Of a stretch of 53,703 bases of DNA, positions 28,312 through 49,022 are shown piece after piece; position 1 is the stretch's first letter, and each line of letters opens with the position of its first letter. Origin of the DNA: a virus. Under the pieces are notes generated by a model that was not told where the DNA came from, did no database searches, and saw only the letters and a list, made by a program, of their open reading frames with translations. The position numbers and the translations under genes are program-made. The stretch is taken from UHGV virus genome UHGV-0137934; one strand, given 5' to 3'.

Positions 28312-28850
28312 AGTTCCACTCTTTCCTTTACCCAACCATAGAGAAAATCTTCATTTGCCGCCCGAGCTTCAGCAAGCTCAAGATAGCGAGCGCCCTGGCT
28401 ACAATTCAGCCCCTTCAGCAGCGTGGTTTCACCATCTTTGCCACGAACAGCGAGATAACTTTTCAGGGCGGCGATGGTGATGTTGCCGATTGCACCGTCC
28501 GGATTCAGATCCGGATATAGCTTGCCCTGCATATTCAGAGCTGATAACCAGCGCTGTAGGAATGTACTGGCGACACGTGGCCCCATGTTCACGCCGGTAT
28601 CACACAATTCCTGTGCAATGGCTGGCGACAACTCGGCGATGCGGTCGAACTTCGGTTCAGTCCAGTATTGCGACAGATAAATGGCTTTGGCTGTATCCCG
28701 TGGTAACGCCTTCATATCGCCGCTATAGCCATACGCGCGGGCAGTAGTCTGAGTGATACCCCAGCGCGTAGGGCCGCCTTTATCATTCGGGTTATTTACG
28801 TAACCCCCTTCTTTACCGAGAATGCCCTCGATAATCTGATCTGCTGTCAT
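28308..28850 (-). CDS. endolysin, GH108-type with peptidoglycan-binding C-terminal region
   Basis: 180 aa; N-terminal ILGKEGGYVNNPNDKGGPTRWGITQ motif. Confidence 0.8.
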   Translation of the reverse strand: MTADQIIEGILGKEGGYVNNPNDKGGPTRWGITQTTARAYGYSGDMKALPRDTAKAIYLSQYWTEPKFDRIAELSPAIAQELCDTGVNMGPRVASTFLQRWLSALNMQGKLYPDLNPDGAIGNITIAALKSYLAVRGKDGETTLLKGLNCSQGARYLELAEARAANEDFLYGWVKERVEL

Positions 28851-29158
28851 GGCGCCTTAACTCCGGTAATGCGCTCCCAGAAATAGGTCAAAGCAACAGA
28901 ACCCATTGCCCCGCTAATTCCGGAAGTCGCCAGTATCATGTAAATGCTCAGTCCGCTTTCAATGCTCACCAGGCCAGCAATAACGCCGGTAAACCCTGAA
29001 ACCACCATTTGGGCAAGAGCATTGAACAAGCTCCATGTTGCCTTGCTCTGCTTCACATCTATCAGGTAGCGGACAAGTCCACCCCAGCAAGCAATGATCA
29101 GCAGAACCAGCCAGGACATCCCGGCAATGCTCTCTTTGTCTTGCATACGTTTAGCCAT
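28847..29158 (-). CDS. holin
   Basis: 103 aa with about three hydrophobic helices; overlaps endolysin start; GGAGG RBS. Confidence 0.65.
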   Translation of the reverse strand: MAKRMQDKESIAGMSWLVLLIIACWGGLVRYLIDVKQSKATWSLFNALAQMVVSGFTGVIAGLVSIESGLSIYMILATSGISGAMGSVALTYFWERITGVKAP

Positions 29159-29639
29159 AGTTACCGCCTCCGATGAAAGATCGGGAAGCTGTGTGAATAA
29201 ATGGGTGGGCTCTGCGCAAGCGCCCTGCGATTGGGTTATGAACCGTCGCAGGTGAGCCCTGTATGGGGAAAGGCCGCCAGATTGATTTACGACAAAGCAC
29301 TGTGTGACTAACGTTCTGGCCGCGCATTGAGGGCTTAAGCTTCAGAAAATAAACAGATAAAAAAAATTCAAGCCACCAAAATTAAGGATCACAAAATCAA
29401 AGCATTGATTTTATTAAATAAAAATAAATCAAAGCAAAAAATAGGAATGCAGACAAGCATATTTTACTTATTAATAAGTAATTTACGGAATTAGACACCA
29501 TAAAAATCAATAAAATCAATAAACCATAAATTCAGATTAATTAGTTAAAATTAACAAGTTTTAAGGGTTAGGATTTTTCTCACTACAACTATAAATTCCT
29601 GCCAATCAATGAAAGAAAGTACTTTGGGGTAGAAATTAC

Positions 29640-29762
29640 ATGTCAAATTTACTGATGCTAGCCTTAGCTATAGCTCTTCTTCTTATTGGTATTGGTTTTC
29701 TTGTCTCTTATATAAGAGACAGGAAAAGATATAAAAATACTTTTAAAAATAGGCGTAGATAA
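29640..29762 (+). CDS. small membrane peptide A (40 aa, TM helix plus basic tail RDRKRYKNTFKNRRR)
   Basis: Paralogue of peptide at 31509-31628; shared upstream motif GTTAGGATTTTTC. Confidence 0.4.
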   Translation: MSNLLMLALAIALLLIGIGFLVSYIRDRKRYKNTFKNRRR

Positions 29763-30060
29763 CCACTTACCAGAAATAGAAAGATGTTAGACACATCTTC
29801 TGACCAATAAAATTATAAACCTAAGGGATTTCGACCAAATCATTTTCATAACTTCGCGTTAGCTAACAATTTCTTTGTCTGAACACGCTGCAAATTAAAA
29901 GGCTTAACTAGTTTGCATAGGCTGGAGTGTCGCGATTATTTACAGTGCTTTAGTAAATCGCTATGATTTACGGACTGGGGAGGCCTGAGACTCACCCCAG
30001 TGCCCTTAAAATCTGATTGATGCTTTTGAGGTCCGCTTCCCGAAGTGGACCTTTTTTTGC

Positions 30061-30088
30061 CCAAAGAAAAGGCCCGCCGAAGCGAGCC
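30061..30088 (-). terminator. intrinsic terminator (minus strand)
   Basis: Minus-strand hairpin GGCTCGC-TTCG-GCGGGCC followed by TTTTCTTT. Confidence 0.5.
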
Positions 30089-30119
30089 TGCCACTGCTGT
30101 TTCTTTGTTTGTATTGGTT

Positions 30120-30253
30120 GTGGTGCCGGGTGCCTCCCGGTGAGCTTTTGGGTGACCGACCATAGCTCGCGTTCATTAGCTTCTAACTCTGCTGACGTTA
30201 CCGTGCCACATTGTCTGGTCAGTTCCGCCCCGCCGCACAGGGGGATTCACCAC
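30120..30253. repeat. structured element A (134 nt) with conserved termini GTGGTGCCGGGTGCCTCCCGGTGAGC ... GGGGGATTCACCAC
   Basis: Paralogue of 31142-31253; termini can pair (GTGGTG/CACCAC); internal CCGGG...CCCGG hairpin; ERIC-like end motif. Confidence 0.35.
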
Positions 30254-30324
30254 GCACTTTAATTAACCAACCATTTAGACTCATGTCAATTATTTGTGTT
30301 CTATGCATCAACGTAGATAATCCG

Positions 30325-30522
30325 CTAACCAATAACTCTTCTGGCTGTTGTGTAAATTTTCGTCAAATACAGATCTTTTGTCTGATCATTATGAATTTGA
30401 AGCATCAAATGCAAAGTCTGATCTGTAATAGGTTGGCCGGTTTCTTTTAGCATTATGATAGCTCTACCCAGCACTCGACAGACATCATCGTACATAGCCT
30501 GGTGTTCTTCTTTTGGCGACAT
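30325..30522 (-). CDS. small regulatory-type protein (possibly AriR/YmgB-like connector family)
   Basis: 65 aa from ATG at 30522 with GGGAG RBS; weak family resemblance only. Confidence 0.35.
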   Translation of the reverse strand: MSPKEEHQAMYDDVCRVLGRAIIMLKETGQPITDQTLHLMLQIHNDQTKDLYLTKIYTTARRVIG

Positions 30523-30538
30523 TCTACGGGCTCCCTGA

Positions 30539-30757
30539 TCACATCGGCTTCGCTTCAAATTGACTCATTGCAAGAAGATTTTCCCACAAATTATTGGCTG
30601 GGCTCAAGGCAAATAAGCAGCTTACAGGATGATCGGGGAGCAGGTCAAAGAAGTGTCTGAAAACATGTGACTGAATCTCCAGCTTTGGGCGGAGCTGGCA
30701 GGTTGCTTTGGTTGCTGGATTTTTAAACTCGCAACCATGAAATGCTTCTCTCAGCAT
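30539..30757 (-). CDS. hypothetical ORF
   Basis: 72 aa, poor RBS. Confidence 0.2.
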   Translation of the reverse strand: MLREAFHGCEFKNPATKATCQLRPKLEIQSHVFRHFFDLLPDHPVSCLFALSPANNLWENLLAMSQFEAKPM

Positions 30758-30940
30758 TGCATTAAGGAAAGGCTCGATAATTGATTTGCTTATACCTGGA
30801 ACCGACTCAACGAGGGTTTTAAAGTGAGCCGCAGTATTTGCTGCGACACTGGTTGCAATAGCTATATGGCTGGATACTTCAACCCCCCTCAGTGCCAGAA
30901 AGCCCCCCTCTTATTGCTGTGAGTCCTCTCATGAACGAGG

Positions 30941-30971
30941 GGAAAAAAAAAGCCCGCTTTGAGAGCGGGCT
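30941..30971 (-). terminator. intrinsic terminator (minus strand)
   Basis: Hairpin AGCCCGC-TTTGAGA-GCGGGCT with 8-nt U-run on minus strand. Confidence 0.6.
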
Positions 30972-31141
30972 GAAAAAGTTGGCTTTCGAGGAGTAACGAT
31001 AAAGAAAGGTTCCTGATAGTCCGAGCTACCGATTTACCAGAAAAGCATTCCCTTTAATGTCGTTACTGTAATTAACCATAGTCTGCCAAAGAGGATGAGT
31101 AAACCTAACAGGATGTTCAGTTTACTTACTTGCGATTAGAT

Positions 31142-31253
31142 GTGGTGCCGGGTGCCTCCCGGTGAGCATGCCCCAACAGACATCACTCGCGTGGTATTCA
31201 CAGGGCTTTCGCTCTATTAGTTGGACGCCCCTCCGCATAGGGGGATTCACCAC
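31142..31253. repeat. structured element B (112 nt), paralogue of element A
   Basis: Identical 26-nt 5' end and near-identical 3' end to element A; variable middle. Confidence 0.35.
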
Positions 31254-31508
31254 AACAATAGATTAGCCATGCAGCATTCACATAGTCAATACCCTGTAGT
31301 TATAGGGTATATACGCATGCCGACAACTCTTAAATAAGTCAGAACACGATTAATTAATGCATATGAAATCATTACGGTATTAATGATAAAAACTCATACA
31401 AAACAATAAATTTAAAAGGAATTATCCGTTAGGATTTTTCCTACGCCAATCGCAAACTACGTTTTATAAAAACAAGAATGTCCATACTCTTTCCAGAGGT
31501 TAACTCAC

Positions 31509-31628
31509 ATGACAGCCATACTGATGATAGCGTTAGCTGTAGTTCTTCTTTTAGTTGCTGTGGGATTCCTGATTTCTTACATCAAAGAAAGGCGTAGATA
31601 TAAAAACACCTTTAAAAAATGGCACTAG
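31509..31628 (+). CDS. small membrane peptide B (39 aa)
   Basis: MTAILMIALAVVLLLVAVGFLISYIKERRRYKNTFKKWH; AGAGG RBS; paralogue of peptide A. Confidence 0.4.
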   Translation: MTAILMIALAVVLLLVAVGFLISYIKERRRYKNTFKKWH

Positions 31629-44025: not shown

Positions 44026-44577
44026 TTATTTCTCCATACACAAAGATTTATTCGCCACGACGCCCGGAGCTGCACACTCGCGGGCGTCACTCTTTTCTGA
44101 CTGGCAAAAGACACGGAAAAGCAATGTCAAATGCTCCTGCCATTTCGCCATCACCTGATAACTGTTCTCCTCGATCTGCTCTCGTTCTGCCTGGTCAATA
44201 ACACCGTCAGCTGTAGCTTTACGGAGATACTGTGAGTGCTTTCCGATCCACTCGATAGACTCCATCAGGCGCTGGTTGATATCGGCGTTATCAACGTCCT
44301 CAATATCTGCCAGCGGCACAAAAACCCCGTTCGAATGGCGGGCTATCGCATTGGCTATATGATTCGAACCACCAGCGCGCTGCAGAACCATTGCCCAGCC
44401 TAGAGGGAAAATCTGATCTCCATCGGCACGTAAGCGGTTAAACAATGCGTTTTCAGTAACACCCAGCCATTCAGCTGCTTCTGCATACCCACCGTCCAAA
44501 TCAGTGATCGTTTTTTTGATCGCAGCCACCAGCCAAGCCGGCTGCTTATCAATTTTCCATTCAGGTTCTATACCCAC
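44026..44577 (-). CDS. cII-like/YdaT-like regulatory protein
   Basis: 183 aa; follows cro-like gene as ydaS-ydaT pairs do. Confidence 0.45.
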   Translation of the reverse strand: MGIEPEWKIDKQPAWLVAAIKKTITDLDGGYAEAAEWLGVTENALFNRLRADGDQIFPLGWAMVLQRAGGSNHIANAIARHSNGVFVPLADIEDVDNADINQRLMESIEWIGKHSQYLRKATADGVIDQAEREQIEENSYQVMAKWQEHLTLLFRVFCQSEKSDARECAAPGVVANKSLCMEK

Positions 44578-44621
44578 TGTTTGCCCCTTATCTCTGTGGT
44601 TAACGCTGCTAAAACCAAATG

Positions 44622-44822
44622 TTATTGTTTGGAATAGATATCTGGTCGGAGATCAAACTTCGTGATCGCGCCGGATGTGCTTTTTTCCAGTTTTTTTGCC
44701 AGATCAAATCCGGCTTTTTTGTAGCCGTTAAAAACTAAACGCAGATAACCGGGTGTAGAGCCAACGTTTGCAGCTAAATTGCTTTGTTGCTCTTTAGTTA
44801 ATGAATCCCAGAACTCTTTCAT
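44622..44822 (-). CDS. Cro/YdaS-type HTH regulator
   Basis: 66 aa from second ATG (AGGAGG RBS 8 nt upstream); divergent from cI. Confidence 0.6.
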   Translation of the reverse strand: MKEFWDSLTKEQQSNLAANVGSTPGYLRLVFNGYKKAGFDLAKKLEKSTSGAITKFDLRPDIYSKQ

Positions 44823-44892
44823 ATATGTACCTCCTGTGTACATATTACACGAAAGAAATGAACCTTCAAGGTACTTGTACCACGAAGGTACA
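44823..44892. promoter_or_regulatory. cI/cro divergent operator-promoter region with GTAC-type palindromes
   Basis: ATATGTAC-N7-GTACATAT (44823-44845), GGTACTTGTACC (44870-44881), GGTACA (44887-44892). Confidence 0.5.
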
Positions 44893-44909
44893 CACGGTTT
44901 AATTTCAAT

Positions 44910-45584
44910 ATGAAAACAATCCAGGAAATCAGGCGGTTAAACGCCAGAAAATTGCGTGATGGTGTTGGCGGTAATATTTACTTCGCCAATATGATTGATC
45001 GCGAGCCGACTCAAACCAGCCGGTTCATGGGAGATGGCGCCACTAAAAACATCGGCGATGCAATGGCAAGGCACATTGAAAAGTGTTTTGACTTACCTAC
45101 TGGGTGGTTAGATCAGGAACATCAAACCACTAATGTTGCTAAAACTCCCGATGTCTCTGATACAAATAGAAATATCACCATGGTTCCGGTTATATCCTGG
45201 GTACAAGCAGGAGCATGGACCGAAGTTGGCTATGCTGAGGTTGATTTGAATAGCACTGAAAACTATCCATGCCCTGTTCCTTGTGGGCCGATGACTTATA
45301 TTCTTCGTGTTATTGGCGACTCAATGATCGACGAATATAGGCCCGGTGATATGATTTTTGTTGATCCCGAAGTTCCAGCAGTACATGGAGATGATGTGAT
45401 CGCCTTAATGCACGATTCTGGTGAGACTACATTTAAACGGTTGATTGAAGATGCAGGACAACGCTATCTAAAAGCACTTAACTCAAACTGGCCAGAACCT
45501 TACATCAAAATCAATGGTAATTGCTCTATCATTGGTACCATAATTTTTTCCGGTAAACCAAGACGATACCGAACGAAAACATAA
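44910..45584 (+). CDS. CI-type repressor (HTH plus S24 LexA-like peptidase)
   Basis: 224 aa; C-terminal VIGDSM ... ETTFKRL motif of S24 autoproteases. Confidence 0.85.
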   Translation: MKTIQEIRRLNARKLRDGVGGNIYFANMIDREPTQTSRFMGDGATKNIGDAMARHIEKCFDLPTGWLDQEHQTTNVAKTPDVSDTNRNITMVPVISWVQAGAWTEVGYAEVDLNSTENYPCPVPCGPMTYILRVIGDSMIDEYRPGDMIFVDPEVPAVHGDDVIALMHDSGETTFKRLIEDAGQRYLKALNSNWPEPYIKINGNCSIIGTIIFSGKPRRYRTKT

Positions 45585-45595
45585 CAAAGACTATT

Positions 45596-45619
45596 AAACC
45601 TGCTTCGGCGGGTTTTTTT
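45596..45619 (+). terminator. intrinsic terminator after cI
   Basis: AAACCTGC-TTCG-GCGGGTTT hairpin plus T7. Confidence 0.6.
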
Positions 45620-45623
45620 ACAC

Positions 45624-45656
45624 TTGACAATGTACCTCAACGGTACATAATGTACC
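45624..45656 (+). promoter_or_regulatory. P_L-like promoter overlapped by two operator palindromes
   Basis: TTGACA-N16-CATAAT; TGTACC-N5-GGTACA (45631-45647) and GGTACA-TAA-TGTACC (45642-45656). Confidence 0.6.
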
Positions 45657-45757
45657 TAAAAGAAACAGCGAACAGGCAGGACGCCCACGAAGTAGCCGCC
45701 CGGGGCATATGAAGACCGGGATGATTCGCTGACAGATAAACCAAATAGGAACAGATC

Positions 45758-45991
45758 ATGGCAAGCAAAGGCATTGAAAACCTTATCAAGGACGCATTAG
45801 CAAACGGCTGTCATGTAGTCCGTAAAGCGCATCGCTTCGAGGTAAGCAAGAAAGGCCAAAAATCAATCACTCTTATTATTTGTGAAGATGGCACAGCTTA
45901 CCGGGGAGATATTGACCTAACGATCGCCATAGCCATTCGCACTCAAAAAGAAATGCGCAGCATCCTCGGCCTGCCGGCCAAGGCAAGTTAA
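45758..45991 (+). CDS. hypothetical 77 aa protein, first ORF of P_L-like operon
   Basis: ORF with AGGA RBS; not arginine-rich like N; weak HicA-like resemblance only. Confidence 0.45.
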   Translation: MASKGIENLIKDALANGCHVVRKAHRFEVSKKGQKSITLIICEDGTAYRGDIDLTIAIAIRTQKEMRSILGLPAKAS

Positions 45992-45999
45992 TTACCACA

Positions 46000-47109
46000 G
46001 GTATCTTCGGGAGGGGTTGCGGAGCTGGATTGACCACCAGCAACAGAAACTCACCCGACATACAGCAGCCGTTTAGCCCACGGCGTCGGGGGTCCAGTAG
46101 ACCTGGATTAATACTGTAGGGGTTATGCCGGTTGGTCGCCGGCGCCCCGCCCGAAGATACCTGATCGAACATGGCGAAAGCCGACAGCGTTGAAGGCGAT
46201 TTTCTCGGTTTGCGCGCTAAACAATAGCGGGGGTGAAATCGGGGCGGAGAAGCAGAATCCGCGATGTCGGGACTTGATACTTCCGGCCAGACCAATAAGC
46301 CGAATGATCGCGTAACGGTCCTTTGCATCTGCCCCGGCGAGGTGGCGCCGCCGGACCGGGGTAGATGAATCGTACACAACATGAAAGCGCATTCCATCTT
46401 CATCCGTCGTGGGGACTGGTTTGTAACTGAAGGAGTGCGCTTCCAGTTGTGAACGGCAATATTCACGACCGTTGTATGGCACATGCAGCGTTAGCAGCCC
46501 GGATGGTTCCCTTGAAGTTCCATGCGCTATCCGGACAACTGGAATGTGCAAGCCAAGTGTTTCAGGCACGACGTGCGCCCCACCAGCGCGGCGAAAAGGT
46601 GTGACGCCCGGGAAGAGTCCGGGACACAACGATGAGGGCATTGACGAGCAAGGCACAGAGTCTGGTTCGATTCCAGACGCCAGGATAGTTCTATATCTGG
46701 TGATGGGCAGGGAAAAGGTCCGTTCGATTCGGACACCGGCAGTGCTCTCTTCGTTGTGGTAATTGCGGCTATGCGCACGTGACGAGCCAAACCCGTTCAA
46801 TGAATGCGTTTCCGGGCAGTGTACGTCGCCGGTTATGGCTTAACCCGGCAGGTGGAGGCACCACCGCCACAACCTAGTTAACTGTGCTGTGTGTAGTCTT
46901 GGCGGTTATCCAGTTTTCCACTATCCAAAGGAGGAAGAGGATAACGTTCTGATGGATAACCGCCCTTTTTACACAATACACAAGAGCATCACCGGGTGAC
47001 GGGCTCATTACCCAATCCACCCGGGCGGCGTCCTAACCGCAGGTGCTCTTCTGTGTTGTGTACGGAGAAATTCCCGGCGGTGGCAGCCGCCTTTCGAGAG
47101 GGTAAAACC
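46000..47109 (+). other. GC-rich structured non-coding region (candidate large ncRNA or cis-regulatory RNA)
   Basis: No credible ORF; multiple long inverted repeats and twin T-loop-like hairpins (see findings). Confidence 0.35.
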
Positions 47110-47481
47110 ATGAGTAATGATCGCATGACAGTAGTGCCCGATTTCCTGGGTGAACTGGACGCCGGCGTGTTCATGAACAAGATTGCGGCGGCTCTTAATA
47201 CCACCGCGCTCGGCGTTCTGAACAACGGCAACAAAGGCAAGGTTGTCCTCACCTTTGATTTTGAGCGTATGGGCAACTCTGTTGAAGAGAAGCGCGTCAA
47301 GATTAAGCACAAGCTGAACTACAGCACCCCAACTCCCCGCGGCAAAGCGTCGGAAGAGGACACCACCGAAACACCAATGTGGGTTAACAAAGGCGGCAAG
47401 CTCACTATCCTGCAGGAGGATCAGGGGCAACTCTTCGGTATCACCGGCACGGTGGACGGAAAGCTTAAAGCGGCTCAGTGA
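47110..47481 (+). CDS. YfdP-like hypothetical protein
   Basis: About 124 aa from ATG 47110 (GAGGG RBS); ORF track start at 46996 is unlikely. Confidence 0.5.
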   Translation: MSNDRMTVVPDFLGELDAGVFMNKIAAALNTTALGVLNNGNKGKVVLTFDFERMGNSVEEKRVKIKHKLNYSTPTPRGKASEEDTTETPMWVNKGGKLTILQEDQGQLFGITGTVDGKLKAAQ

Positions 47482-47537
47482 TCCGCACGCACAAATTCAC
47501 TGATACCACTTCGCTAATCAGTTAATAAGGAATTTTT

Positions 47538-48365
47538 ATGTCTCAGTTAGACAGCGGTACTTTTCAGCAGGTTAAAGACCTGGTGCTTTCGGGTTATCAC
47601 CTGGAAGATATTAACGGTCTGGCCTGCCCGACAGTCCTGCGCCCAGAAAATACCAGCGTTGAAAGCCTGGAGCGTTTTTCTCTTGAGCGCTTCCGTTTCC
47701 GCGGCGCCATGGACACAACCAGCATTGATGATTTCGTTCGCTATTCTGTTAGTTATGCCCAAGAAGAAGAAAAGGCACGTTGCTTTATTGATGCCGATAA
47801 CATGCTGGCCCGTTCTATCTTCAATATCGGCACGCTGGATAACCCAGGCCACGCTGATAACGTCGCCTCGATCAAGCTTAAGAAGACAGCGCCCTTCCGC
47901 GCGTTACTGGCGATCAACGGCGATCACCTTAATCAGAAGCAAATCGCTGAGTGGCTCGAAGACTGGAGCGATTATCTGCTGGCATTTGATGCTGGCGGCA
48001 ACACGATGACGATCGCCCAAGCTGCGCAAGCTGTCCGCCGCGTCACTATCCAACAGGCGACTCAAGCCGACCATGAAGATAGTGACTTTAGCGGAAAGAA
48101 ATCGTTGATGCAAAGTATTGAAGCCAGCAGTAAAGAGGTTATGCCAGTAGCGTTTGAGTTTAAGTGTGTACCCTATGAGGGCCTGGGCGAACGTCGTTTC
48201 AGTCTGCGCAATAGCCTGCTCAAAAGTAGCGAGCCGGTATTCGTTCTGCGTATTGTCCAGCTGGAAGCCCAGGAAGAAGCGATCGCCAATGAGTTCCGCG
48301 ATCTGCTGATTGGCAAGTTCGACGGCAAGCCGGTAGAAACCTTTATCGGCAACTTCAAAGCCTGA
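47538..48365 (+). CDS. DUF2303/YfdQ-like protein
   Basis: 275 aa; size and synteny match CPS-53 yfdQ as remembered. Confidence 0.5.
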   Translation: MSQLDSGTFQQVKDLVLSGYHLEDINGLACPTVLRPENTSVESLERFSLERFRFRGAMDTTSIDDFVRYSVSYAQEEEKARCFIDADNMLARSIFNIGTLDNPGHADNVASIKLKKTAPFRALLAINGDHLNQKQIAEWLEDWSDYLLAFDAGGNTMTIAQAAQAVRRVTIQQATQADHEDSDFSGKKSLMQSIEASSKEVMPVAFEFKCVPYEGLGERRFSLRNSLLKSSEPVFVLRIVQLEAQEEAIANEFRDLLIGKFDGKPVETFIGNFKA

Positions 48366-48494
48366 TTGCTCTCCATTAAATCCCCGGCGCCGCGGGGATT
48401 TATTAAAGCGTAATCCTGCAAATAATCGCCACCTGGCGAGGGATTCCTACACCCAAAAAACAGCGCTGTGCAGGCGTAAAGTATGGAGAAAAAA

Positions 48495-49022
48495 ATGAGC
48501 TTTATTCAAACCTTTTCAGGCAAACATTTTAACTATCTCGACATCCAGCAAGACGCCATCGAGATCGAAGATATTGCTAATGCACTCTCGAACATCTGCC
48601 GCTTTGCCGGTCACCTGCCTGAGTTCTATAGCGTCGGCCAGCACAGCGTTTTAACAAGCCAACTGGTACCTCAGGAATTTGCGCTTGAAGCGCTGCTGCA
48701 TGACGCCGCCGAGGCATATTTGCAGGATATCCCTGCCCCATTGAAACGCCTTCTTCCTGACTACCGAGCCATTGAAGATCAGGTTGATGCAGCTATTCGC
48801 CAAAAATTCGGCCTGCCGGCTGAGCAGCACCCGACCGTTAAATATGCCGACCTGGTGATGCTGGCCAGCGAACGTCGCGACTTTGAGATCGACGACGGCA
48901 CCCATTGGACGATGCTCGACGGCGTCATTCCTACCGACCAATTTGTGATTAATCCCGTCCGCCCTGGTCAATCTTACGGCATGTTCATGAACCGCTTTAA
49001 CCAACTGATGGAGCGGCGCTAA
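48495..49022 (+). CDS. HD-domain 5'-deoxynucleotidase, YfdR-like
   Basis: About 175 aa; H...HD metal-binding pattern (GQHSVL ... LLHDAAEAY ... D). Confidence 0.6.
   Translation: MSFIQTFSGKHFNYLDIQQDAIEIEDIANALSNICRFAGHLPEFYSVGQHSVLTSQLVPQEFALEALLHDAAEAYLQDIPAPLKRLLPDYRAIEDQVDAAIRQKFGLPAEQHPTVKYADLVMLASERRDFEIDDGTHWTMLDGVIPTDQFVINPVRPGQSYGMFMNRFNQLMERR

What the first reader, a model, noticed from the sequence alone, without database searches (positions are those of the whole stretch)
46000..47109. 1.1 kb GC-rich, heavily structured, apparently non-coding block in the slot that holds N/nutL and rexAB in lambda
Directly downstream of cI there is an intrinsic terminator, then a strong operator-overlapped promoter (45624-45656), one 77 aa ORF, and then about 1.1 kb with no credible ORF. 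The only long frames (minus-strand 46123..46800 and 45876..46484) overlap each other in different frames and are H/R/S/P/C-rich and K-poor, so they look like non-coding artefacts. The sequence shows a 17-bp inverted repeat (46000-46016 with 46145-46161, 16/17 complementary) closing a 128-nt domain, two hairpins with the identical T-loop-like heptaloop TTCGATT, a CCCGG-GAAGAGT-CCGGG hairpin, and further long stems near the 3' end. This is the lysogen-expressed or early-left position where phages often park exclusion or antitermination functions. A large structured RNA (put-like antitermination element, or a novel ncRNA) is my leading hypothesis, but it is inference only.
Basis: partly seen in the sequence, partly recalled or inferred. 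Interest (0 to 1): 0.75.

Follow-up and report, generated by a model that had tools for sequence, protein, structure and literature searches.

The report
Phage array of tRNA-like RNAs
The 1.1 kb "empty" stretch after the phage repressor gene is a string of separately conserved, folded non-coding RNA modules, several of them tRNA-like; most are absent from RNA databases, so phages of gut bacteria appear to carry an undescribed RNA toolkit in their first-expressed operon.

Summary
After cI come a terminator, a repressor-controlled promoter, a 77-aa ORF, and then 1.1 kb that does not code for protein. Among close relatives, substitutions fall evenly on the three codon positions, whereas the flanking genes show strong third-position bias. 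Indels are mostly not multiples of three.

The block is not one large RNA. It is a mosaic of at least eight modules, each found separately in other enterobacterial phages. The best supported module, U2 (46625-46759), has a ~20-bp closing helix and three hairpins. Two of these hairpins are exact copies of a tRNA T-arm. In 45 distinct homologues 94% of pair cells are base-paired and 19 of 36 pairs show compensatory change. It is + strand specific and has no Rfam match. It occurs in well over 100 viral contigs, and in genomes only in Enterobacterales.

In Uetakevirus phages U2 abuts tRNA-Arg(UCU). Elsewhere it is followed by tRNA-like or STnc100-like domains. The block ends in a DicF-like hairpin with a U-run and a conserved 5'-UTR element (U4).

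Most likely the block is a co-transcribed, nuclease-processed RNA array. A put-like role fits a separate leader at 45666-45731 better than it fits the block. The function is unproven.

The parts
45596..45619 (+). Intrinsic terminator of cI (context)
   Evidence: AAACCTGCTTCGGCGGGTTTTTTT read directly from the sequence. Weak Rfam hits here are terminator-only matches.
45624..45651 (+). Early-left (PL-like) promoter overlapped by a cI operator (45631-45647)
   Evidence: 11 of 12 matches to the sigma-70 consensus. The operator TGTACC-N5-GGTACA is shared with the cro-cI intergenic region.
45666..45731 (+). Leader A: conserved 5' leader RNA of the early-left transcript. Candidate antitermination or anti-Rho element. 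Lies outside the finding's coordinates.
   Evidence: In 53 distinct contexts it starts about 14-16 nt after the -10 of a promoter, and the operators differ between contexts. The sequence is nearly invariant, with one covarying hairpin. Single copy in the window.
45758..45991 (+). 77-aa ORF. Together with module B it looks inserted relative to phiNP, where A is followed directly by C.
   Evidence: phrog_12911, E = 8e-37. The A|C junction is seen in L003.
45997..46163 (+). Module B: 167-nt domain closed by the 16/17 inverted repeat
   Evidence: z = -5.9. Shared with ST64B at 80% identity. Only 2 compensatory pairs in 7 sequences, so the structure is not proven by covariation.
46167..46373 (+). 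Module C: multi-hairpin domain
   Evidence: Found in phiNP and in E. coli and Buttiauxella prophages. 10 of 43 predicted pairs show compensatory change.
46374..46451 (+). U1: short unit with the same type of closing helix as U2 and U4 (CACAACAUGAAAGCGCA...UGCGCUUCCAGUUGUG)
   Evidence: z = -4.4. 30 homologues; the helix is invariant, so no covariation is available. Picked up by the U4 model through its stalk (17.1 bits).
46452..46623 (+). Module D2 plus two small hairpins. The second hairpin (46607-46623) has a conserved GAAGAGU loop.
   Evidence: Shared with Klebsiella and Uetakevirus phages. The hairpin stem covaries: CCCGG/CCGGG, CCTCG/CGAGG, CCTGG/CCAGG. The fold of D2 itself is not significant (z = +0.3).
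46625..46759 (+). U2: cloverleaf-like RNA. It has a ~20-bp closing helix, T-arm mimic 1 (46661-46677), a variable hairpin (46680-46700) and T-arm mimic 2 (46718-46734).
   Evidence: Covariance model gives 157.8 bits on + against 21.8 on -. 94.2% of cells are paired and 19 of 36 pairs are compensatory; 0 of 500 shuffles reach this. z = -4.95.
46753..46873 (+). U3: domain closed by GUUGUGG...CCACAAC, with a D-arm-like hairpin and a GGUGG-AGGCA-CCACC hairpin. It occupies the place of the tRNA and shares its 5' strand with the U2 stalk.
   Evidence: Comparison of the domains that follow U2. The equivalent domain in L006 hits STnc100 at 35 bits, below the cut-off of 47. The window copy has no Rfam hit. 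z = -1.3 only.
46886..46970 (+). DicF-like sRNA/terminator: invariant single-stranded 5' stretch UUGCUGUGUGUAGUCUU, a long GC-based hairpin, then CUUUUU
   Evidence: DicF model scores 16.5 bits, below the cut-off of 48. 7 compensatory pairs and an invariant U-run in 14 homologues. z = -4.4.
46971..47061 (+). U4: stalked unit with the conserved interior GACGGGCUCAUUACCCAAUCC, lying between the terminator and the sb37-like gene
   Evidence: z = -7.7. 6 compensatory pairs in 28 homologues. The model scores 110 bits here and finds a related element at 29207-29259 on the minus strand.
47076..47112 (+). Small hairpin, Shine-Dalgarno sequence and start codon of the sb37-like gene (47110-47481)
   Evidence: Read from the sequence. 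phrog_204, E = 2e-41. Strong third-position bias shows this gene is real.

Best explanation
The block is the untranslated middle of the early-left (PL-type) transcript of a Klebsiella-type, ST64B-like temperate phage. It encodes a tandem array of independently folding RNA modules.

Shown:
- It is non-coding and + strand specific.
- It is built of modules that recombine between phages at short conserved helices (CACAAC / GUUGUGG / CCACAAC).
- At least four modules (U2, U4, C and the DicF-like hairpin) have structures kept by compensatory change.
- U2 carries two exact T-arm mimics inside a ~20-bp stalk. It sits directly 5' of a tRNA, a tRNA-like domain or an STnc100-like domain.
- The array ends in a hairpin plus U-run, followed by a conserved 5'-UTR element.

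Inferred:
- On prophage induction the array is transcribed as one RNA. This resembles a ribosomal RNA operon, which also has a conserved leader, stalked structured RNAs and tRNA-like spacers.
- RNase III cuts the ~20-bp stalks, and RNase P cuts at the acceptor-like helices. This releases stable small RNAs.
- The T-arm mimics give tRNA-like folding and stability, or engage tRNA-handling enzymes.
- The DicF-like and STnc100-like pieces act as base-pairing sRNAs, as their named relatives do.
- The DicF-like hairpin acts as a partial stop that gates expression of the sb37-yfdQ-HD genes. Read-through is helped by leader A.
For: Non-coding:
- Variable sites among relatives of at least 90% identity fall 17/19/23 and 9/15/10 on the three codon positions of the two minus-strand ORFs. 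The neighbouring genes give 4/2/69 and 9/6/51.
- Indel runs that are not multiples of three, against those that are: 2:0 (B), 19:0 (C), 47:0 (U1), 19:0 (U4), 19:31 (U2).
- The long frame is broken in L076 and L025.
- No Pfam or PHROG hit.

Mosaic:
- 118 phage records match pieces of the block and none covers 80% of it.
- Module boundaries are sharp.

U2:
- Searches give 94.2% of cells paired, 19 of 36 pairs compensatory, and a covariation score of 0.288. Shuffles give 0.124 (0 of 500 reach the observed value). Slid controls give 0.055-0.083.
- Genome hits confirmed by the model are all in Enterobacterales.

tRNA link:
- tRNA-Arg(UCU) starts 3 nt inside the U2 stalk in 14 of 120 distinct contexts.
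- An Rfam tRNA hit follows U2 directly in L140.
- tRNA-like and STnc100-like followers are seen.

Other modules: U4, C, DicF-like.

Promoter, operator and leader.

Context: about half of 114 distinct contexts have a cI homologue upstream, and about half have sb37/YfdQ/HD downstream, on the same strand.

Composition: G exceeds C on the + strand across the block. This disfavours Rho loading sites.
Against: - There is no expression or processing data. Every step after "conserved structure" is inference.
- B, U1, D2 and U3 have little or no covariation support.
- U2's outer helix and U3's closing helix use the same GUUGUGG, so both cannot form at once. The order of folding and cleavage is unknown.
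- The long minus-strand open frame is statistically unusual (3 of 1000 shuffles).
- Homologues were collected with exact sequence patterns from U2. This inflates apparent conservation near those patterns. A second pattern from the other side of the unit reduced this bias.
Confidence: 0.55

Rival explanations
1. The whole block is a cis-acting regulatory leader. Its structures exist to control read-through (antitermination, anti-Rho or attenuation) into the sb37-yfdQ-HD genes. They do not make trans-acting or stable RNAs.
For: - No N-like protein is encoded on either side of the immunity region.
- An intrinsic-terminator-like hairpin with an invariant U-run sits inside the leader.
- U4 always lies between that U-run and the first gene.
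- Leader A is fixed at the transcript start across many immunity types.
- The G-rich + strand disfavours Rho.
Against: - Modules U1, D2 and U2 also occur in Uetakevirus phages, between structural genes and upstream of a tRNA, with no sb37 operon.
- The modules are swapped freely, which does not suit one integrated switch.
- No similarity to HK022 put.
- 1.1 kb is far more than any known cis antiterminator needs.
Confidence: 0.15
2. U2 and its tRNA-like neighbours are tRNA mimics that act as decoys or sponges early in lytic growth. Possible targets are host tRNA-cleaving defence nucleases, or tRNA-handling enzymes such as RNase P, TruB, TrmA and CCA-adding enzyme.
For: - Both U2 hairpins match the tRNA T-arm rule (G-UUCRAUU-C on a 5-bp stem) and are invariant in 45 distinct homologues.
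- The units sit next to real tRNAs or replace them.
- They lie in the first operon expressed on induction.
Against: - There is no anticodon arm, and no tRNA call by ARAGORN or Rfam.
- No defence or anti-defence gene is linked.
- The idea rests on resemblance only.
Confidence: 0.12
3. The block is the decayed remnant of a phage tRNA gene cluster. It is kept only because its short conserved helices serve as recombination linkers between modules, and the RNAs have no function of their own.
For: - Module borders coincide with CACAAC / GUUGUGG / CCACAAC.
- A graded series runs from true tRNA to tRNA-like to unrecognisable domains.
Against: - Compensatory changes keep helices intact across lineages.
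- Junction sequences and loops are invariant in 45 distinct U2 copies.
- The elements persist in compact phage genomes across several families of Enterobacterales.
Confidence: 0.08
4. A protein is encoded on the minus strand (46123-46800, 225 aa; or 45876-46484, 202 aa).
For: The stop-free stretch of 238 codons is reached in only 3 of 1000 dinucleotide shuffles.
Against: - No third-position bias, and more non-synonymous than synonymous changes (41 to 22 and 23 to 12), while the control genes behave as genes.
- The frame is broken in close relatives.
- Indels shift the frame.
- No family match.
- The frame spans modules that are separate in other phages.
Confidence: 0.02

Closest known systems
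STnc100 / PasD prophage sRNAs (Rfam RF02076; Zhu, Shabalina and Storz, bioRxiv 10.64898/2026.05.13.724894)
   Same: - Prophage-encoded.
- The domain is closed by a (GU)UGUGGUG...CACCACAAC helix, followed by AAU and a hairpin, with a 3' hairpin carrying an AGGCA loop.
- Two bona fide copies lie in this same window.
- The domain after U2 in Salmonella phage 118970_sal3 scores 35 bits.
   Different: - The window's U3 gives no hit even at E = 10.
- U3 lies in the early-left operon without its own promoter. STnc100/PasD lie in the late region (Q to lysis genes).
- The interior is different.
DicF sRNA of the Qin prophage (Rfam RF00039)
   Same: - Same relative place: an untranslated piece of the operon that leaves the immunity region.
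- UUGGCGGU..CAGUUUU..CCGCCC hairpin plus a U-run.
- A conserved single-stranded 5' stretch.
   Different: - 16.5 bits against a cut-off of 48.
- A 28-nt insertion in the hairpin.
- A different 5' sequence, so different targets if it has any.
HK022 put RNAs (PMC9378689)
   Same: - A phage without N.
- A ~65-70-nt conserved RNA encoded at the very start of the PL transcript (leader A).
- Terminators lie downstream that must be passed.
   Different: - This applies to leader A, not to the 1.1 kb block.
- No sequence similarity.
- No second copy on the PR side.
- Activity is untested.
Stable non-tRNA RNAs of phage tRNA clusters (T4 species 1 and 2 RNAs). Cited from my own knowledge, not checked here.
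   Same: Structured RNAs of unknown function that are co-transcribed with phage tRNAs and have tRNA-like parts that allow tRNA-type processing.
   Different: - Different phages, and no sequence relation tested.
- Here the units sit in a temperate phage's early-left operon, and most copies have lost the true tRNA.
Ribosomal RNA operons (working analogy only)
   Same: A long untranslated transcript, a conserved leader directly after the promoter, structured RNAs enclosed by ~20-bp stalks, and tRNA or tRNA-like spacers.
   Different: - No boxA match of proven kind. UGCUCUU occurs only inside helices.
- No evidence for Nus factor use or RNase III cleavage.
Large ornate phage-associated RNAs (GOLLD, ROOL) and bacterial Y RNAs (YrlA)
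   Same: - Large structured RNAs in phages, next to tRNAs (GOLLD, ROOL).
- A long terminal stem plus a tRNA-like T-arm module (YrlA).
   Different: - No Rfam match at any threshold.
- The block is a set of swappable modules and lacks a single fixed architecture.
- No Ro-binding motif was seen.

Membership tests
HK022 put RNA | About 70 nt with two stem-loops, encoded just downstream of an early promoter | tested here: not met
   The block starts about 340 nt after the transcript start and is 1.1 kb long. Leader A (45666-45731) does meet the position and size criteria.
HK022 put RNA | Sequence similarity to putL/putR | tested here: not met
   The best local alignment of leader A to the HK022 nun-cI-cro region scores 23, which is chance level. 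No Rfam hit.
HK022 put RNA | A second copy downstream of PR | tested here: not met
   The window holds only one copy of the leader A core at up to 3 mismatches.
HK022 put RNA | Binds the RNA polymerase beta' zinc-binding domain and suppresses termination in cis | not testable with these tools
   Needs in vitro transcription or reporter assays.
tRNA | Cloverleaf with an anticodon arm, recognised by ARAGORN or Rfam RF00005 | tested here: not met
   ARAGORN finds 0 genes in the window. No tRNA hit at E up to 10 in 45500-47300.
tRNA | T-arm: 5-bp stem closed by G-C with loop UUCRANN | tested here: met
   46661-46677 and 46718-46734. The loop letters U, U, C, R, A and the closing G-C pair are invariant in 45 distinct homologues.
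STnc100 (RF02076) | Rfam gathering score of 47 bits | tested here: not met
   No hit for 46735-46990 at E up to 10. A positional equivalent in L006 reaches 35 bits. True copies in the window score 97 and 70 bits elsewhere.
DicF (RF00039) | Rfam gathering score of 48 bits | tested here: not met
   16.5 bits at 46888-46965.
Intrinsic terminator (46901-46970) | GC-rich hairpin directly followed by a U-run | tested here: met
   GGCGGUUAUCCA...UGGAUAACCGCC followed by CUUUUU. The stem covaries (7 pairs) and the U-run is invariant in 14 homologues and in 28 U4 homologues. Termination activity itself was not tested.
RNase III processing stalk | Roughly two turns (about 20 bp) of double helix enclosing the RNA to be released | tested here: met
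   The U2 helix has 21 pairs, 95.7% of cells paired and 9 pairs with compensatory change. U4 has about 19 pairs.
RNase III processing stalk | Cleavage by RNase III | not testable with these tools
   Needs an rnc mutant or an in vitro assay.
Known large ornate RNAs (GOLLD, ROOL, OLE, HEARO and others) | Match to the family's covariance model | tested here: not met
   cmscan of the whole window at gathering thresholds and of 45500-47300 at E up to 10 gave no such family.
Protein-coding gene | Third-position-biased, mostly synonymous substitution; indels in multiples of three; frame kept in relatives | tested here: not met
   Control genes in the same window pass the test.

The most novel reading that the evidence does not exclude
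Together with leader A, the block is a protein-independent phage "RNA operon" comparable to an rRNA operon. A promoter-proximal RNA makes polymerase termination-resistant. A train of stalked units is then cut out by RNase III and RNase P.

The central unit, U2, would be a new class of tRNA mimic with two T-arms on a long stalk. It would engage host tRNA machinery or tRNA-directed defence nucleases during the first minutes of induction. STnc100/PasD and DicF-like sRNAs would then be derived members of the same tRNA-descended superfamily.
Probability: 0.2. Interest if true: 0.85.

Novelty: new variant of a known kind. Interest (0 to 1): 0.62.

Why it matters
- Gene callers leave this 0.7-1.1 kb gap blank in ST64B, phiNP, Stx2a and Stx2c phages, Klebsiella prophages and many E. 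coli genomes.
- The gap holds several conserved RNA structures that neither Rfam nor the searchable literature describes. These include a very widespread double T-arm RNA.
- The gap sits in the first operon switched on when these prophages, some of them toxin-carrying, are induced.
- It gives concrete, testable candidates for three open questions: how N-less phages of this group get through early terminators, what tRNA-like stable RNAs do for phages, and where prophage sRNAs such as STnc100 and DicF came from.

Tried and rejected
- **Rfam.** Searched at gathering thresholds on the whole window and on 14 related loci, and at E up to 10 on sub-regions. Only STnc100 elsewhere in the window, weak DicF, and tRNA, C4 and isrK in relatives were found.
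- **ARAGORN.** No tRNA in the window.
- **Pfam and PHROGs on every long frame in the block.** Nothing.
- **Sliding 150-nt fold z-scores.** Uninformative, because the windows cut across domains. Unit-aligned folds were used instead.
- **Hammerhead reading of CGAUGAG.** Rejected. The motif lies inside the stalk and is replaced by covarying sequences in divergent copies.
- **Integron attC-like reading of CACAAC...GUUGUG.** Rejected. The interior is highly conserved, G-U pairs make the structure strand-specific, and the cores miss the attC consensus.
- **nut (boxA/boxB) reading.** A GAAGAG-loop hairpin and UGCUCUU strings exist. However, no arginine-rich N-like protein is encoded nearby, and the boxA-like strings are base-paired. 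Left unsupported.
- **mEp021/Gp17-type antitermination.** A different phage group with a different layout.
- **HK022 put similarity.** None.
- **Literature search for U2 core sequences.** No paper.
- **U1.** No covariation, because the helix never varies.
- **U3 and D2.** Folds are no better than shuffles.
- **Genome-collection scan.** 33 of the 40 exact matches, all those outside Enterobacterales, were chance hits not confirmed by the model.
Full report
**Setting**

The window resembles a Klebsiella prophage. The best match is phage Kp4866-6, at 94.5% identity over 54% of the last 13.7 kb.

Positions 44026-49022 form an ST64B-type immunity region:
- cII-like gene (minus strand)
- cro-like gene (minus strand)
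- cI with a Peptidase_S24 domain (44910-45584, + strand)
- a terminator (45596-45619)
- a promoter (45624-45651, 11 of 12 consensus matches)
- a 77-aa ORF (phrog_12911)
- the gap under study
- an sb37-like gene (47110-47481, phrog_204)
- a DUF2303/YfdQ gene
- an HD-domain gene

The promoter carries a perfect copy of the 17-bp palindrome TGTACC-N5-GGTACA. The same palindrome occurs three times between cro and cI. The promoter is therefore a repressor-controlled early-left promoter. The gap is the N/nutL slot of lambda, not the rexAB slot.

**Observation**

**Coding test**

No frame in the gap matches Pfam or PHROGs. The longest minus-strand stop-free stretch (238 codons) is unusual for this composition: only 3 of 1000 shuffles reach it. 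I therefore tested it directly.

Among relatives of at least 90% identity, variable sites fall as follows by codon position:

| Region | Position 1 / 2 / 3 | Synonymous : non-synonymous |
|---|---|---|
| Minus ORF 46123-46800 | 17 / 19 / 23 | 22 : 41 |
| Minus ORF 45876-46484 | 9 / 15 / 10 | 12 : 23 |
| sb37-like gene (control) | 4 / 2 / 69 | 80 : 6 |
| yfdQ gene (control) | 9 / 6 / 51 | 50 : 18 |

The long frame is broken in two close relatives, L076 and L025. Indels in four modules are never multiples of three. The gap is non-coding.

**Mosaic structure**

BLAST against 50,697 phage records finds 118 records that match pieces of the gap. None covers 80% of it, and most matches lie in unannotated sequence. 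In E. coli, 116 of 5,426 complete genomes match parts of it.

ST64B, phiNP, Stx2a_1447 and an E. coli prophage all have a blank 0.7-1.0 kb gap between cI and the sb37 homologue.

Pairwise matches break at sharp borders. These borders define modules B, C, U1, D2, U2, U3, a DicF-like element and U4. Upstream lies leader A.

**U2**

I collected homologues with two independent exact patterns, one from each side of the unit. I then built a covariance model.

The window copy scores 157.8 bits on the + strand and 21.8 bits on the minus strand. On 45 distinct sequences:
- 94.2% of pair cells form standard pairs. Controls with the partner slid by 1-3 columns give 38-54%.
- 19 of 36 pairs show change on both sides.
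- The covariation score is 0.288. Shuffles average 0.124, and 0 of 500 reach the observed value.

The structure has four elements:
- a closing helix of 21 pairs, which in many lineages is a perfect duplex with a different sequence
- a hairpin with loop UUCGAUU
- a strongly covarying variable hairpin
- a second hairpin with loop UUCGAUU

Both UUCGAUU hairpins obey the tRNA T-arm rule: a closing G-C pair and U, U, C, R, A in the loop. Both are invariant. The purine-rich junctions (GACGAGCAAGG and UGGGCAGGGAAAAGG) are also nearly invariant.

In the species-representative genome collection, the model confirms seven hits. They are in Edwardsiella, Buttiauxella (two), Izhakiella, Rouxiella, Pantoea and Serratia. 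The other 33 exact matches, all those outside Enterobacterales, were not confirmed by the model.

**Link to tRNAs**

In Uetakevirus phages (the SPN1S/SPN9TCW group and Klebsiella relatives), modules U1, D2 and U2 lie between structural genes. There U2 abuts tRNA-Arg(UCU), whose first three nucleotides are the last three of the U2 stalk.

Elsewhere the same GUUGUGG begins one of the following:
- a tRNA with an insertion (Rfam tRNA, 45.9 bits, L140)
- tRNA-like domains with canonical D- and T-arms (L030)
- domains of the form GUUGUGG-UGAAU-hairpin ... hairpin(AGGCA)-CACCACAAC

One domain of the last form scores 35 bits against STnc100, below the cut-off of 47.

The window's U3 has that layout but no Rfam hit. 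Two true STnc100 copies in the late region of the window begin and end with the same helix sequence.

U2's 3' strand and U3's 5' strand are the same nucleotides. The two helices therefore exclude each other.

**Stalked units as a family**

U1, U2 and U4 share the stalk sequence theme ACACAAC..GAGAGCA / UGCUCUC..GUUGUG. The U4 model picks up U1 through its stalk.

Some U2-type stalks enclose other interiors. One of them carries the U4 motif GACGGGCUCAUAACCCAAYC. The stalk is thus the constant part and the interior is exchangeable.

**3' end of the block**

The DicF-like element has three parts:
- an invariant single-stranded stretch, UUGCUGUGUGUAGUCUU
- a hairpin with seven compensatory pairs
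- an invariant CUUUUU

This is the anatomy of a terminator-ended sRNA. It scores only 16.5 bits against DicF.

U4 follows the U-run directly in all 28 homologues and has six compensatory pairs. A related element lies upstream of a late gene at 29207-29259 on the minus strand.

**Leader A**

Leader A lies outside the given coordinates but bears on the put-like idea. In 53 distinct contexts the 66-nt element 45666-45731 starts 14-16 nt after the -10 of a promoter. The operators of those promoters belong to many different immunity types.

Its sequence is almost invariant, with one covarying hairpin. It has no similarity to HK022 put and no second copy in the window. In position and size it is the best candidate for an RNA that modifies polymerase or recruits a factor.

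**Mechanism**

Shown:
- a repressor-controlled promoter
- a conserved leader
- a non-coding, + strand specific, G-rich array of conserved structures with ~20-bp stalks
- T-arm mimics and tRNA or tRNA-like neighbours
- a terminator-like hairpin
- a conserved 5'-UTR element

Inferred:
- The array is transcribed as one RNA on induction.
- It is processed at the stalks by RNase III and at the acceptor-like helices by RNase P.
- Stable small RNAs are released, some of which base-pair with targets as DicF and STnc100 do.
- The terminator gates the downstream genes, with read-through helped by leader A.

What U2 itself does is unknown. I rank the rival readings as follows: a purely cis-acting leader (0.15), tRNA-mimic decoys (0.12), a decayed tRNA cluster (0.08) and a minus-strand protein (0.02).

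**Novelty**

There is no Rfam family and no paper containing the core sequences. The only related literature concerns STnc100/PasD in the late region.

The kind of element is known: phage structured RNAs, tRNA-like RNAs and prophage sRNAs. New here are the U2 family, the stalked-unit organisation and the placement in the early-left operon. I rate it a new variant of a known kind, with interest 0.62.

**Caveats**

- There are no expression data.
- Homologues were found by exact patterns, which biases conservation near those patterns.
- The covariation controls do not fully remove phylogenetic signal.
- B, U1, D2 and U3 rest mainly on sequence conservation or thermodynamics.

Noticed in passing
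window 45666-45731 (+): A 66-nt leader RNA that is almost invariant. In 53 distinct phage contexts it starts 14-16 nt after the -10 of early-left promoters, and the operators of those promoters differ. It has one covarying hairpin. It is a candidate antitermination or anti-Rho element in phages without N.
   Followed up: partly
window 29160-31550 (- strand): A second ORF-poor stretch of about 2.4 kb in the late region. It holds two STnc100 copies (30059-30282 at 97 bits; 31099-31282 at 70 bits), each behind a promoter-like TTGAC sequence. Their ends use the same GUUGUGG/CCACAAC-type helix as the U3-like domains.
   Followed up: partly
window 29207-29259 (- strand): The U4 model hits a related element (20.2 bits, E = 0.002) with a compensated stem and the same interior motif GACGGUUCAUAACCCAAUC. 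It lies just upstream of ORF 28847-29158 (minus strand). The motif may be a recurring 5'-UTR signal.
   Followed up: no
window 44826-44892 and 45631-45647: Four copies of the palindromic operator TGTACC-N5-GGTACA: three between cro and cI and one over the early-left promoter. The window has 7 matches against 1.09 expected.
   Followed up: yes
window 45758-46163: The 77-aa ORF (phrog_12911) and module B look like one insertion. In phiNP and relatives, leader A is followed directly by module C.
   Followed up: partly
L022, L029, L032, L040 and others, just 5' of U2: A conserved sequence, CACCGAGCCUGAUGUGGUGAAAAGACAGGC, whose two stems interleave as in an H-type pseudoknot. In these loci it replaces the window's GAAGAGU hairpin.
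   Followed up: no
L001 179-367 and L004 88-276: ST64B and Stx2a_1447 carry a C4 antisense RNA and isrK next to an antirepressor gene, which points to a second, P1-like immunity layer. Neither was found in the window.
   Followed up: no
window 45992-47109 (- strand): A 238-codon stop-free stretch antisense to the RNA array, longer than in 997 of 1000 shuffles although it is demonstrably non-coding. The cause was not worked out; a purine-rich sense strand or helix symmetry are possibilities.
   Followed up: partly
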